A stretch of 64,000 nucleotides of DNA from Escherichia coli. Lineage in GTDB: Bacteria; Pseudomonadota; Gammaproteobacteria; Enterobacterales; Enterobacteriaceae. Below, piece by piece: positions 17,329 to 47,126 of this stretch. The number at the start of each line of letters is the position of its first letter. The first letter of the stretch is position 1. The position numbers and the translations under genes were made by a program. A model generated the notes under the pieces. That model did no database searches. It was not told the origin of the DNA and worked only from the letters and a program-made list of their open reading frames with translations. Location: assembly GCF_003018255.1 (NCBI RefSeq), contig NZ_CP027440.1; one strand, given 5' to 3'.

Positions 17329-18522
17329 TTAATAACGGCGCTGCCAGATCCACAGCGCCGTTATTGCCAGCGCAAACAGCGCACCGAAGCCAATGCCAAT
17401 GGGCACGACCGGGATGCCTACCATTACCGCCAGCGAGTAAATGCCCAGCATCAACAACATGGCGCTGTTTTCGCCAAGGTTTTGTACTGCAATCGCATTC
17501 CCCGCCCCGACGCTTTTTTTACCCCGTTCCTGTAGCAACGCATTGAGCGGAACGACAAAAAAGCCCCCCAGCACGCCAATCAGCATCAACAAGGCATAGG
17601 CTGACAGCAGCTCGTGTTGCAGGGAGAAAATCAGTACCACCACGCCAATCAAAATCCCGGCTGGCATACAGCGTGACACGGTTTCCAGCGTAACTAACTT
17701 CGCTGCCGCACCAGCGCCAACCACGATACCAATCGCTACCATCGCGTTGAGATAGGTCGGCGTAGCGTTATCGGTAATGCCCAGCGCCACCGGTACCCAC
17801 AGCACCAACAGGAAACGCAGCGTGACACCCGCTCCCCAGAATAAACTGGTGCCCACCAGCGAAAAACGCGTTTCACCATTGCGCCATAGCGAGGTGCAGG
17901 CATTCAGGAAACTGCGGGTCATGCTGATGAGATTCCAGGACTGCCCCGGACGCGCCGCCGCCAGTTTAGGAATGTAGATATTGGCAACGACCGCACCACC
18001 GTAGGCCAGTGCGCATGCGGCCAGGGCGACCAGGACATGCCAGTCAGCCAGTACACCACCGGCTACGGAACCGAGCAAAATCGCCGCTATGGTAGAAGCT
18101 TCCATTAAACCATTAGCTTTCACTAACTTACTACCCGTGGTTAATTCGCCGAGAATACCGTATTTCGCCGGTGAATAGGCTGCAGCACCAACACCCACCA
18201 GCGTATAGCCGAGAAACGGATTGATACCAAAGCAGATACTGGCTGCGCCCAGCAGCTTCAGGCCGTTGGCAAACATCATCACCCGGCCTTTGGCGAAGCT
18301 ATCCGCCACCTGTCCGACAAACGGCGCAAAAAGAATGTAAGCACCTACAAACACCATTTGCAGGATGGGCTGGCTCCACTCCGGATAAAACTGCGCTTTC
18401 AGTAACGCCAGAGTGGCAAACAGCAGCGCATTATCGCCAAACGCAGAGAGAAACTGCGCCACGATAACCGCTTTCATCCCCTTCGACCACAACGAAGTGT
18501 TAGTGTGCACTGACTCACTCAT
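17329..18522 (-). CDS. lplT: Lysophospholipid transporter (MFS)
   Basis: 397-aa MFS-type membrane protein; its start overlaps the aas stop by 8 nt. Confidence 0.9.
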
Positions 18523-20674
18523 CGTGTTGTTCCGCTTCGTCTACCCAGCTTTTCAACGTGACAAAGTCAGGTTTGCCGCTGCCAAGTAATGGCATCTGTT
18601 TCAGATAGCGAATATCGCGCGGTACAGCAAGCTCCGGCACGCCGTGCTCGCGGGCATACTGTTGCAACTTATCGCGCGTCAGTTCGTTATCTGTGGTGAA
18701 AAGCACCAGTGCCTCGCCTTTGCTGGCATCGCTCTTAATCGCAGTGGCATGGACTTTATCTGGCGAAACACCAAGTGCCAGTTGTTCCACCATTTCCAGC
18801 GACACCATTTCGCCTGCAATTTTGGCAAAGCGTTTTGCGCGGCCCTGAATCTGCACAAAGCCCTGCTCGTCGAAACGCACAATATCGCCAGTGTCATACC
18901 AGCCGCGCTCCATTTCGCCGCGAACATTCTCGGCGGTGGGCACTTCCAGTACACCTGGCTTCTCCACCCGCAGATAGCCGTTCATTATGTTCGGCCCTTT
19001 CAGTTGCAGGCGTCCGCCCTCTTCGATACCAGGAACCGACAACAGGCGCGCATCCATTCCTGGTAGAATACGCCCTACCGTACCGGGTTTCGCCGCCATC
19101 GGTACGTTGATAGAAACGACAGGCGCGCACTCGGTCACACCGTAGCCTTCAAGGATGCGCAGGCCAAATTTATCCTGCCAAAGCTGTTTGGTACTTTCTT
19201 GTAGTTTTTCTGCGCCTGCCACCACATAGCGTAGACGGTAGAAGTCATACGGGTTGGCGAAACGCGCGTAGTGACCGAGAAAAGTCGAGGTACCGAACAA
19301 CACGGTGCAACTGCGGTCATACACCAACTCCGGCACAATGCGGTAATGCAGCGGGCTTGGATAAAGGAACACCTCTGCACCTGTGAGCAGTGGCGTAAAC
19401 AGGCCTACCGTCAGCCCAAAGGAGTGAAACAGCGGTAACGCCGACATAAAGCGATCGTTGGTGGTGAAGTCGGCAATCGTTTTAATCTGCTCGACATTCG
19501 CCAGAATGCTTTTATGGCTATGGACGACGCCTTTCGGATGGCCTTCAGAACCGGAGGTAAAAAGGATCAGCGCCTCTTCTTCCGGCTGCTGTTTTACCTG
19601 TGCCAGACGCGGCATCAGCAAATGAGCGAAGATCCATACTTTGTCGGCAGTGGTGACATCTGCTTTTAAATCTTCCAGATAGACCCAGCGCACCTGAGTA
19701 AGTTGCTCCGGCAGATGCCAGAGTTTGCCTTTATCGAGAAACTGACGGGAAGTGAAAATGGTTTTGATTTCAGCCGCCGTAATAGCACTGGTCAACCCTT
19801 TTACCCCGGCGGTGTAGTTCATCATTGCGGGAATGCGGCGACGGGCGATGGCCCCAAAAATCACTGCCGCACTGATGCCTGCATTGGGCAGCATTAAGCC
19901 GATGCGTTCGCCTTCAACACTGTATTTTTCAAGGATGCGTCCAACAAACAGCGTTTTCGTAAGCAATTTGCGATAGGAGTCCGGGGTAAAGTTAACGTCT
20001 TCGACACATTTCTTCCCGGCTCCGAAGCGGTACATTGCGCTCAGTAAAGATTCGTACAGCGTTTCACGCGGGCGCACCGCCATACGCGCTTCCATCATTA
20101 TTTGATGCAGCATTTCGCCAGCGATTTTGCGACGGTCACGGGCACGCGGCGCATCCGGCATCTCCACCTGCGTTGGTGGCAAAATATGCAGAGTAATTTG
20201 CGGGAACAAGCGACGTTTAACCAGACCTTTCAGGCGGCTGAAGTGCGTAAGTTCCGCCCCTTCAATACGCACAGGAATAACCGTTGCACCAGACTTCGCC
20301 GCGACAAATCCCGCGCCATCGTAGATTTTCATCAGCGAGCCAGTGGTGGTGATGCGTCCTTCAGGGAAAATCACCACTGGTCGGCCCTGTTCCACCAGAC
20401 GTACCAGATGTTTAATCGCCATAGGTTGCGTCGGGTCGAGAGGAACAAAGTCGATAAATGATTTCAGCCAACGCATATACCACTGTTGGCTTATTGAGGT
20501 GTAAACGGCAAATACCGGACGTACGGGTAAAAACAATGCCAGCAGTATGCCATCAATAAAAGAGACGTGATTAGGCGTGATTAGAACGCGCTCGCCCTTC
20601 AGTGCCTGGGTGTCACCCGTAACGCGAACGCGATACAAAACACGGCACAAATTTCGAAAAAAGCTAAAAAGCAT
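18515..20674 (-). CDS. aas: Bifunctional 2-acylglycerophosphoethanolamine acyltransferase / acyl-ACP synthetase
   Basis: 719 aa; N-terminal acyltransferase HxxxxD motif (PNHVSFIDG) and C-terminal AMP-binding motif ([14 protein letters not shown]). Confidence 0.93.
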
Positions 20675-20761
20675 TCCAACTCCCTTTGCTCTGATTCAGT
20701 AAAAGCGAATGGAGGGAGATTACACGAGATAAAGAACGCGAGCGACAGTAAATTAGGTGCG

Positions 20762-20849
20762 AAAAAAAACCTGCGCATCCGCGCAGGTTGGTGCAAGAGA
20801 CAGGGTACGAAGAGCGTACCGAATAATCTCACCAATCAATACCTCTGGG
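20762..20849 (-). ncRNA. omrA: OmrA small regulatory RNA (OmpR-regulated, Hfq-dependent)
   Basis: 88-nt minus-strand sequence beginning CCCAGAGGUAUUGAUUGGUGAG and ending in a CCUGCGC...GCGCAGG hairpin plus U8. Confidence 0.9.
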
Positions 20850-45460: not shown

Positions 45461-45466
45461 TTTAAA

Positions 45467-45502
45467 GGCCGGGTGGGTAATACCATCCGGCCATTTTCAT
45501 TT
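45467..45502. terminator. Bidirectional terminator between convergent yqeA and yqeB
   Basis: Hairpin GGCCGGGTGG ... CCATCCGGCC followed by ATTTTCATTT. Confidence 0.6.
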
Positions 45503-47126
45503 AAGCCACTTCCAGCACTTCTTTCGTCGCTTTAACGCCCTGATGCATCAACATCATTAACGCCTCAAGTACGCCGCCGCCAATCGCCCGGGCTTTATCA
45601 GAAACGCTGGTGAAATCAGCCGTTTCACCACGAGGATCGATATCACCAATTTTAAAACCACCGACCACTGCCAGTCCGTCGTTCAACAAGCCACGCACCA
45701 TCCCCGTCAACGGTGCTTTAATTTCATGCTCACCAATCCAGGCAATCACATCGCCCTCTTTCACCAGATCGCCTAATTTCACGTTGGATCGCATAATGCC
45801 TGCAGCAGGAGCACGGATCACCCGTCGGGTGGTATGCCCCATAATATTGCCAGGAACACCGGTATTCTCCTGCGCACAACCAGAGTAAATCACCTGACCG
45901 AGCCAGTGCCCGCGATTTGTTTCAATTACCGCATGACAATCCTTCCCTGCAGTAAAGCCCGGCCCAAGCGCGATTGTTACTGGTGCCATATCTGCCCGCG
46001 TCCCCAAATTCTGTTTCGCCAGAATAGCGTCCACCACGCAAAGCGGTTTCAGTTCATCAAGCAATGAACAGGCGGGATCTACTATCACAGGGATGAATCC
46101 GCATTCGGTAAGTTTCATCGCCTCCGCAGAGCTGGTTGCCAGGCGGGCGGTGACGCCTTCGACCGTCATTTCGCCATCGAACACGGCCTGGGCAAATGCC
46201 ACGGTACAACGAATCACTGTCGGTTTTTCCACTTCCAGCATGATCACTTTAAAACCCGCATGATACAGACGTAGCGCTACACCACTGGCGATATCCCCCG
46301 CACCACGAATCACCACCAGCTGGTGTCCGGAAGGATGAGAAGGCTTCATCATCAGCCCACCCGGCGCGTTATTTTTCACCTGTAATATTTCTGCCAGCAC
46401 GCTGATGGCGATCTCCTGCGGCGTTTCCGCACCTATGTTGTAACCAACGGGCGCATGTAAACGGGCAATATGTTCTTCAGCCACGCCTTTCTCACGCAAT
46501 TGGCGCAGGAAAAGCTGAACCTTGCGGCGACTTGCCAGCAACCCCAGCCATGCAATGGGTTGTTCAATGAGTTTGTCGAGGGCTTCACGATCCTGATTAT
46601 TCGTGGCAATCAGGACAAAATTATCAGGGCGAATATCCAGTGCTTCCACTGCCGCACCAAACGACTCAGCATGGAGAAGCGTGGTTGATGGTGGGAATAG
46701 TTCAGGATTGAGGCTTTCGCGATAAATATCGGCAACGGCGATATCAAATCCTAATAGCGCCGCACTCTGGGCTATCGCCCGGTTGACATGCCCCGCGCCA
46801 ATCAACACCAGACGTGGACGCATACCATGGACGCTGATAAATACTGACATTGCACCTCCACAATCTGACCCGACAGCATCCGCACCGTTACGAGCCATAC
46901 GTCCATGGAATAATCGCGGCTTACGTTCCTGCAATGCCTGAAGCGACTCTTCAATCACCTTCCGCTCAACCATTCCGCCACCAATTGTACCGACGATAGA
47001 GCCATCGGCGCGCACTAACATTTGTGCAGAATGGCGGGGGGTTGAGCCTCGGCTATCAACAATTTGCGCCATCGCAAACGGACAATTTTGCTCTTCGAGT
47101 TTTGCAGCCTCTGTGAAAATATTCAT
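45501..47126 (-). CDS. yqeB: YqeB-family accessory protein of selenium-dependent molybdenum hydroxylases (XdhC/CoxI-like)
   Basis: 541 aa with XdhC/CoxI-like and Rossmann-like regions (LIGAGHV). Confidence 0.85.
   Translation of the reverse strand: MNIFTEAAKLEEQNCPFAMAQIVDSRGSTPRHSAQMLVRADGSIVGTIGGGMVERKVIEESLQALQERKPRLFHGRMARNGADAVGSDCGGAMSVFISVHGMRPRLVLIGAGHVNRAIAQSAALLGFDIAVADIYRESLNPELFPPSTTLLHAESFGAAVEALDIRPDNFVLIATNNQDREALDKLIEQPIAWLGLLASRRKVQLFLRQLREKGVAEEHIARLHAPVGYNIGAETPQEIAISVLAEILQVKNNAPGGLMMKPSHPSGHQLVVIRGAGDIASGVALRLYHAGFKVIMLEVEKPTVIRCTVAFAQAVFDGEMTVEGVTARLATSSAEAMKLTECGFIPVIVDPACSLLDELKPLCVVDAILAKQNLGTRADMAPVTIALGPGFTAGKDCHAVIETNRGHWLGQVIYSGCAQENTGVPGNIMGHTTRRVIRAPAAGIMRSNVKLGDLVKEGDVIAWIGEHEIKAPLTGMVRGLLNDGLAVVGGFKIGDIDPRGETADFTSVSDKARAIGGGVLEALMMLMHQGVKATKEVLEVA

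What the first reader, a model, noticed from the sequence alone, without database searches (positions are those of the whole stretch)
17853..46320. Chi recombination hotspots on the minus strand of a window that itself encodes RecB and RecC
At least three plus-strand CCACCAGC octamers (Chi, GCTGGTGG, on the minus strand) occur at 17853-17860, 21066-21073 and 46313-46320, and I found no plus-strand GCTGGTGG by eye. The strand bias is what is expected if the minus strand is the leading strand here, consistent with the K-12-like orientation of this replichore.
Basis: seen in the sequence. Interest (0 to 1): 0.3.

Follow-up and report, generated by a model that had tools for sequence, protein, structure and literature searches.

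The report
Leading-strand Chi sites in E. coli
This stretch of E. coli chromosome carries ten Chi recombination-hotspot octamers, all on the replication leading strand, which is the long-known genome-wide pattern and has no special link to the nearby recB and recC genes.

Summary
An exhaustive search finds 10 GCTGGTGG octamers on the minus strand and none on the plus strand. Dinucleotide shuffles give about 1.8 for both strands together. One reader coordinate is off by 10 nt: the site is at 21076-21083, not 21066-21073.

The window is E. coli chromosome, from the 5' end of recB through ptrA and recC to ygfT, in K-12 orientation. In the nearest complete genome, oriC lies about 0.94-1.0 Mb to the high-coordinate side. 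The window is therefore copied by the leftward fork, and the minus strand is the leading strand. Negative GC skew and KOPS (0 plus, 4 minus) agree. Across oriC the Chi polarity flips, from +2/-12 to +15/-2.

The bias is specific to the exact octamer. The 24 one-mismatch neighbours are unskewed (71:62). Codon-preserving shuffles reach 10 minus-strand sites in only 0.05% of trials. The sites lie in both sense (5) and antisense (4) gene contexts, plus one intergenic site.

Density is one site per 6.4 kb, no higher than the genome average, so the neighbouring recB and recC genes are a coincidence. This is the textbook Chi polarity that directs origin-ward RecBCD to switch from degradation to RecA loading. 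It is already known and of low interest.

The parts
479..486 (-). Chi octamer GCTGGTGG in the sense strand of recB (codons 59-62, CTG CTG GTG GTC). Conserved in K-12.
17853..17860 (-). Chi octamer in the sense strand of lplT (TCG CTG GTG GGC). Conserved in K-12.
18195..18202 (-). Chi octamer in the sense strand of lplT (ACG CTG GTG GGT). Conserved in K-12.
21076..21083 (-). Chi octamer in the intergenic region between omrB and galR, at -38..-31 relative to the 5' end of the omrB sRNA. Conserved in K-12.
35215..35222 (-). Chi octamer antisense to xdhA (sense codons CCA CCA GCG). Absent from K-12, which reads CCACCGGC, a synonymous difference.
36036..36043 (-). Chi octamer antisense to xdhB. Conserved in K-12.
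46313..46320 (-). Chi octamer in the sense strand of yqeB (CAG CTG GTG GTG). Conserved in K-12.
49594..49601 (-). Chi octamer antisense to ygfK. Absent from K-12, which reads CCACCAGT, a synonymous difference.
52004..52011 (-). Chi octamer antisense to ygfK, near its 3' end. Conserved in K-12.
62000..62007 (-). Chi octamer in the sense strand of ygfT (GCT GGT GGT). Conserved in K-12.
3719..7087 (-). recC, complete at 1122 codons. RecC is the subunit of RecBCD that recognises Chi. It differs from K-12 RecC at 4 residues.
1..662 (-). recB, only the first 220 codons. The rest of recB, and recD, lie beyond the window start in the nearest genome.
16200..16207 (-). KOPS (GGGNAGGG) on the minus strand, one of four; the others are at 30067, 50428 and 52283, and there are none on the plus strand. 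It is an independent marker of the same replication polarity, though not significant on its own.

Best explanation
These are ordinary chromosomal Chi sites (5'-GCTGGTGG-3') of E. coli, arranged in the known replichore-wide polarity.

Shown here: the window lies about 0.94-1.0 Mb from oriC on the side copied by the fork moving toward lower coordinates. The minus strand therefore has the sense of the leading strand, and all ten Chi sites lie on it.

Inferred from established RecBCD biochemistry: RecBCD recognises Chi only when it approaches from the octamer's 3' side. In this window that means an enzyme moving from low to high coordinates, toward oriC. When a leftward fork breaks, or any double-strand end faces the terminus, RecBCD enters and degrades DNA back toward the origin. 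Here it would meet a correctly oriented Chi on average every 6.4 kb, with a largest gap of 17.4 kb. RecC binds the Chi-bearing strand, nuclease activity is attenuated, and RecA is loaded on the 3' tail for strand invasion and fork restart. An enzyme moving toward the terminus meets no Chi anywhere in the 64 kb.

The recB and recC genes are simply neighbours. Chi acts in cis on DNA all around the chromosome.
For: - Count: 10 minus-strand and 0 plus-strand sites, against 1.78 expected for both strands in dinucleotide shuffles.
- Identity: the window is E. coli recB'-ptrA-recC...ygfT, and all 47 complete annotated ORFs are intact in window coordinates.
- Replication direction: oriC is at 4,573,884-4,574,115 in the near-identical genome, 938-1,002 kb to the high-coordinate side. 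K-12 has oriC at 3,925,744, dif at 1,588 kb, and the homologous region at 2.955-3.031 Mb.
- Other polarity markers: GC skew is -0.036 and KOPS are 0:4.
- Polarity flip at oriC: the 64 kb to the left has +2/-12 with GC skew -0.035. The 56 kb to the right has +15/-2 with GC skew +0.049.
- Specificity: the 24 one-mismatch neighbours total 71 plus and 62 minus.
- Codon controls: synonymous-codon and codon-order shuffles give 3.3-3.4 minus and 1.2-1.75 plus sites, and reach 10 minus sites with P = 0.0005.
- Independence from transcription: 5 sites are sense in minus-strand genes, 4 are antisense in plus-strand genes, and 1 is intergenic.
- Conservation: the K-12 homologous 80 kb has 0 plus and 11 minus sites, and 8 of the 10 window sites are conserved there.
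- Literature: Chi is over-represented, biased to the leading strand, must be approached from its 3' side, and is read by RecC. There are 1009 sites pointing back toward the origin, about one every 5 kb (PMC8022716; PMC10025158; PMC3384302; PMC8096234).
Against: Nothing contradicts this reading, but there are limits.

- No hotspot activity was measured for any of these ten sites.
- Part of the skew, roughly 2-3:1, is already produced by amino-acid and codon content plus gene orientation. Four of the five sense-strand sites use the common N-CTG-GTG-G (Leu-Val) frame.
- The absence of plus-strand sites is not in itself remarkable: P(0) is 0.18-0.30 under the codon shuffles.
- The window's own source genome was not available. 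Replication direction is inferred from a 99.6-99.99% identical genome and from markers within the window.
Confidence: 0.96

Rival explanations
1. The skew is a compositional by-product. The G-rich octamer follows the GC skew, and the abundant CTG and GTG codons generate it in genes that are co-oriented with replication, with no selection on Chi itself.
For: Shuffles that keep each gene's codons and orientation still give more minus than plus sites (3.3-3.4 against 1.2-1.75). Four of the five sense-strand sites are N-CTG-GTG-G. The plus strand has negative GC skew.
Against: The observed 10 minus-strand sites are reached in only 0.05% of codon shuffles. The 24 one-mismatch neighbours, which have nearly the same composition, are unskewed at 71:62. 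Four sites lie antisense in plus-strand genes and one is intergenic. Coding length is about equal on the two strands (28.2 against 30.1 kb). The literature reports that Chi is more skewed than the GC skew predicts (PMC3384302).
Confidence: 0.1
2. The Chi sites are a local feature functionally tied to the adjacent recB-ptrA-recC locus, for example a cluster that protects or regulates the genes of the enzyme that reads them.
For: recC and the 5' end of recB are in the window, and one Chi lies inside recB. K-12 also has a Chi inside recC.
Against: Density is 10 per 64 kb, or 1 per 6.4 kb. That is no higher than the K-12 average of about 13.9 per 64 kb. The recB-recC end of the window is in fact its Chi-poorest part, with a 17.4-kb gap from 479 to 17853. 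The Chi inside K-12 recC is lost here by a single base change (CCACCAAC at 6568). Comparable polarised densities occur in unrelated regions on both sides of oriC.
Confidence: 0.02
3. The 10:0 split is a chance fluctuation in a single 64-kb window.
For: The sample is small. If about 75% of Chi sites are on the leading strand (a figure from my own knowledge), P(10 of 10) is 0.056.
Against: Against a 50:50 null, the two-sided p is 0.002. The same direction of bias is seen in the K-12 homologue (0:11) and in 64 kb left of oriC (2:12), and it is reversed in 56 kb right of oriC (15:2).
Confidence: 0.01

Closest known systems
E. coli Chi (crossover hotspot instigator) sites, the cis-acting regulator of RecBCD
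   Same: The octamer 5'-GCTGGTGG-3' is exact. The organism is E. coli, with an essentially K-12-like RecC (4 substitutions in 1122 residues). The sites are over-represented relative to composition. They are on the leading strand, so they face RecBCD moving toward oriC. Spacing is a few kb. Eight of the ten sites are positionally conserved in K-12.
   Different: Nothing differs in kind. Locally the bias is complete (10:0), whereas pooled samples of the nearest genome run about 90% leading strand, and my recollection of the K-12 genome-wide figure is about 75%. Density is slightly below the genome average. Two sites are lineage-specific, and three K-12 sites are missing through single base changes.
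KOPS / FtsK-orienting polar sequences (GGGNAGGG), the other functional replichore-skewed octamer
   Same: [quoted passage not shown]
   Different: KOPS have a different sequence, a different reader (the FtsK gamma domain, on double-stranded DNA) and a different function (directing translocation toward dif). They serve here only as an independent marker of polarity.
Chi-like sites of other bacteria, such as the five Proteobacterial variants and the AddAB/RexAB Chi of Firmicutes
   Same: They share the same logic: an over-represented, leading-strand-polarised, core-genome motif that switches a helicase-nuclease.
   Different: Their sequences and enzymes differ. Here the canonical E. coli motif itself is present. 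The variant GCTGGCGG occurs 11 times on the plus strand and 5 on the minus, so it is not polarised the same way.

Membership tests
E. coli Chi sites (RecBCD recombination hotspots) | Exact sequence 5'-GCTGGTGG-3' on one strand | tested here: met
   There are ten exact matches, all on the minus strand.
E. coli Chi sites (RecBCD recombination hotspots) | The host encodes the cognate RecBCD enzyme, with RecC as the Chi reader | tested here: met
   recC is complete in the window and differs from K-12 RecC at 4 of 1122 residues. The first 220 codons of recB are in the window and differ at 2 residues. The rest of recB and recD are annotated immediately upstream in the 99.99% identical genome.
E. coli Chi sites (RecBCD recombination hotspots) | Statistical over-representation relative to oligonucleotide and codon composition | tested here: met
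   Ten sites are observed against 1.78 in dinucleotide shuffles. Ten minus-strand sites compare with 3.3-3.4 in codon shuffles, P = 0.0005. The maximal-order Markov expectation for the minus strand is 6.9, a weaker excess.
E. coli Chi sites (RecBCD recombination hotspots) | Polarity co-oriented with replication: on the leading strand, recognisable by RecBCD moving toward oriC | tested here: met
   oriC lies 0.94-1.0 Mb to the high-coordinate side. GC skew is negative. Chi polarity inverts across oriC.
E. coli Chi sites (RecBCD recombination hotspots) | Preference for the core genome over recently acquired DNA | tested here: inconclusive
   The 11.7-kb ETT2 island present in K-12 but absent from the window has no Chi on either strand. 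One island is too little for a test.
E. coli Chi sites (RecBCD recombination hotspots) | Orientation-dependent attenuation of the RecBCD nuclease, RecA loading and local stimulation of recombination at these particular sites | not testable with these tools
   This needs genetics or ChIP. It is known for the motif in general (PMC8096234; PMC5638614).

The most novel reading that the evidence does not exclude
The complete lack of wrongly oriented Chi over 64 kb here, and over 80 kb in K-12, might reflect local purifying selection against lagging-strand Chi in this part of the replichore, beyond the genome-wide bias. Separately, the short recombination patches that distinguish this strain from its nearest relative might begin preferentially just past correctly oriented Chi sites. 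Patch 50171-51940, for example, starts 570 nt past the Chi at 49594.
Probability: 0.07. Interest if true: 0.2.

Novelty: already known. Interest (0 to 1): 0.05.

Why it matters
It matters little beyond quality control. The result shows that the window behaves as the established model of E. coli chromosome architecture predicts. Chi sites, GC skew and KOPS all point from origin to terminus on the leading strand, so broken forks are resected only as far as the next Chi and are then repaired. It is a clean local example of a textbook pattern. It also gives a reliable, sequence-only way to tell the replication direction of an anonymous E. coli fragment. It opens no new question.

Tried and rejected
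- Special link to recB/recC: rejected. Chi density is not elevated, and the recB-recC end is the sparsest part of the window.
- Pure composition or codon explanation: rejected as sufficient, on the codon shuffles and the unskewed one-mismatch neighbours.
- Other skewed octamers: I ranked all octamers by strand skew. The only one more skewed than Chi is GAAGAGAT, at 11 plus and 1 minus. It turned out to be in-frame Glu-Glu-Met/Ile codons in unrelated plus-strand genes, which is a coding-strand effect and not a repeat or a replication signal.
- KOPS: 0:4 agrees in direction but is too few to be significant alone.
- Quantitative genome-wide skew figures: Halpern 2007 and Dillingham & Kowalczykowski 2008 are not held in the library, and two searches failed on term syntax. 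The '~75% on the leading strand' figure therefore rests on my own knowledge. The papers I could read say 'heavily biased' or 'almost exclusively'.
- dif in JNE23-011: I did not locate it. The replichore assignment relies on the distance to oriC and on K-12 coordinates.
- One search failed on a missing file and was rerun.
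Full report
**Observation.** An exhaustive search for GCTGGTGG on both strands gives 10 matches, all on the minus strand, read as CCACCAGC on the plus strand. They are at 479, 17853, 18195, 21076, 35215, 36036, 46313, 49594, 52004 and 62000. There are none on the plus strand (reproduced).

Dinucleotide-preserving shuffles of the window give 1.78 ± 1.28 for both strands together. The largest value is 5, and none of 100 reaches 10.

The third is a 10-nt slip: 21066-21073 reads AAGCCAAA, and the octamer is at 21076-21083.

**What the window is.** A 5-kb piece matches 5,423 of 5,426 complete E. coli genomes. The best match is strain JNE23-011, NZ_AP045067.1. The whole window aligns to 3,572,209-3,636,208 of that record. 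Identity is 99.99% in the first half and 99.59% in the second, with one homopolymer indel.

The annotation transferred from that record runs recB (only the first 662 nt, 220 codons), ptrA, recC (complete), ppdC-ppdA, thyA, lgt, ptsP, rppH, mutH, tas, lplT, aas, galR, lysA, lysR, araE, kduDI, yqeFG, tRNA-Gly, actS, xdhABC, ygeV-arcC, yqeBC, mocA, ygfK, ssnA, ygfM, xdhD, xanQ, guaD, ghxQ, ygfS and ygfT. All 47 complete ORFs are intact in window coordinates. recD and the rest of recB lie just beyond the window start. So 'encodes RecB and RecC' is only partly accurate.

**Replication direction.** The window has the same gene order and orientation as K-12 at about 2.955-3.031 Mb. K-12 oriC is annotated at 3,925,744-3,925,975, and dif is at 1,588 kb (PMC5638614). 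The K-12 homologue therefore lies in the replichore copied by the fork moving toward lower coordinates.

In JNE23-011 the K-12 oriC sequence maps at 99.6% identity between mnmG and mioC, at 4,573,884-4,574,115. That is 938-1,002 kb to the high-coordinate side of the window, on a 4.76-Mb chromosome. The nascent leading strand of a leftward fork has the sense of the minus strand.

Markers within the window agree:
- The plus-strand GC skew is -0.036 overall and negative in 25 of 31 4-kb windows.
- The exception is a weakly positive stretch at 50-62 kb, which coincides with a long run of plus-strand genes.
- KOPS (GGGNAGGG) are 0 plus and 4 minus.

As a positive control I counted Chi on both sides of oriC in JNE23-011. 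The 64 kb to the left has +2/-12 and GC skew -0.035. The 56 kb to the right has +15/-2 and GC skew +0.049. The polarity therefore follows replication direction.

**Is the skew specific to Chi?** Four results say it is.
- The 24 one-mismatch neighbours of Chi, which share its composition, total 71 on the plus strand and 62 on the minus.
- Shuffling synonymous codons within each gene, or the order of codons, keeps gene orientation, codon usage and, for the first, the protein sequence. These shuffles give 3.3-3.4 minus-strand and 1.2-1.75 plus-strand sites. Ten or more minus-strand sites occur in 0.05% of 2,000 shuffles.
- Composition and coding therefore explain a 2-3:1 bias and the frequent N-CTG-GTG-G reading frame (4 of the 5 sense-strand sites), but not the full excess.
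- The sites are independent of transcription direction: 5 are in the sense strand of minus-strand genes, 4 are antisense in plus-strand genes, and 1 is intergenic. Coding length on the two strands is nearly equal, at 28.2 and 30.1 kb.

By contrast, the only octamer more skewed than Chi is GAAGAGAT, at 11:1. It is simply in-frame Glu-Glu-Met/Ile in plus-strand genes.

The zero on the plus strand is not remarkable by itself. P(0) is 0.18-0.30 under the codon shuffles. The maximal-order Markov expectation is 3.1.

**Comparison with K-12 and turnover.** The homologous 80 kb of K-12 has 0 plus and 11 minus sites.
- Eight of the ten window sites are at the same position in K-12.
- The two window-only sites differ from K-12 by one synonymous base each: 35215 (K-12 CCACCGGC) and 49594 (K-12 CCACCAGT).
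- The three K-12-only sites, in ptrA, recC and ppdA/B, are one-base variants in the window at 3330, 6568 and 8425.
- The ETT2 island, present in K-12 but absent here, has no Chi.

**Density.** Ten sites in 64 kb is 1 per 6.4 kb. The K-12 average of 1009 sites would give 13.9 per 64 kb (PMC8096234). There is no enrichment around recB/recC. That end of the window has the longest Chi-free gap, 17.4 kb. Having the enzyme's genes and its sites in one window is a coincidence.

**Mechanism.** This part is established knowledge, not tested here. RecBCD recognises Chi only as the single strand 5'-GCTGGTGG-3', approached from its 3' side, through RecC. Recognition attenuates and redirects the nuclease and leads to RecA loading (PMC8096234). 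Chi is over-represented and heavily biased to the leading strand (PMC8022716; PMC10025158; PMC3384302). Correctly oriented sites are those met by an enzyme moving toward the origin (PMC5638614; PMC8096234).

In window coordinates the 3' side of each octamer is its low-coordinate side. Only RecBCD travelling toward higher coordinates, which is toward oriC, reads them. This is the geometry of the end released when a leftward fork collapses.

**Verdict.** The feature is a local instance of the canonical, long-known Chi polarity of E. coli. It is not novel and is of low interest.

**Side observations.**
- The 133 differences from JNE23-011 fall almost entirely into four short patches of 1.7-4.6% divergence, in ygeW, ygfK, xdhD and ghxQ, within otherwise identical sequence. 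This is the usual footprint of short homologous-recombination imports.
- OmrA and OmrB sRNAs are present, and one Chi overlaps the -35 region of omrB.
- The ETT2 island is absent next to glyU.

Noticed in passing
window 39679-40072, 50171-51940, 55367-56777, 60099-61349: Nearly all 133 base differences from the nearest genome (JNE23-011) sit in four short patches of 1.7-4.6% divergence, in ygeW, ygfK, xdhD and ghxQ. There are no differences in the stretches between them and only 2 in the first 32 kb. This is the typical footprint of short homologous-recombination imports. Against K-12, the window carries the more divergent allele in patches C and D, and JNE23-011 does in patch A. Four patches are too few to test any link to Chi; patch B starts 570 nt past the Chi at 49594 and ends 64 nt before the Chi at 52004.
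   Followed up: partly
window 20762-20849 and 20964-21045 (minus strand); Chi at 21076-21083: The sRNAs OmrA and OmrB are present (Rfam RF00079, 96.6 and 86.1 bits) but are not annotated in the RefSeq record of the nearest genome. The only intergenic Chi lies at -38..-31 relative to the omrB 5' end, overlapping its -35 region, and is conserved in K-12. The single indel against JNE23-011 (A8 versus A9 at about 20972) is in the omrB terminator U-run.
   Followed up: partly
window 31737-32053 (between yqeG and tRNA-Gly glyU): The ETT2 type III secretion remnant island of K-12 (yqeH...ygeQ with IS2, about 11.7 kb, K-12 2,987,247-2,998,947) is absent, and yqeG is followed directly by glyU. The flanking region at 28-34 kb has the lowest G+C of the window (0.455-0.464). 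The K-12 island contains no Chi on either strand.
   Followed up: partly
window 3330-3337, 6568-6575, 8425-8432: Three positions that are Chi in K-12, in ptrA, recC and ppdA/B, are one-base variants here (CTACCAGC, CCACCAAC, CCACTAGC on the plus strand). This leaves a 17.4-kb Chi-free gap over ptrA-recC...tas. Conversely, the Chi sites at 35215 and 49594 are specific to this lineage through synonymous changes. This is ordinary gain and loss of Chi by point mutation.
   Followed up: yes
window 35386, 40268, 41969, 49938, 53006, 54567, 56067, 56799, 58625 and others: GAAGAGAT is the most strand-skewed octamer in the window, at 11 plus and 1 minus. Nine of the 11 plus-strand copies are in-frame GAA-GAG-AT(G/C) (Glu-Glu-Met/Ile) in unrelated plus-strand genes of the ygeW-xanQ purine/selenium cluster. 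It is a coding-strand and multiple-testing effect, not a repeat or a signal.
   Followed up: yes
window 45461-45500 (arcC-yqeB intergenic): K-12 has about 150-180 extra bases here: its intergenic region is 220 bp against 40 bp in the window. This is probably a REP/BIME-type insertion in K-12. I did not examine it.
   Followed up: no
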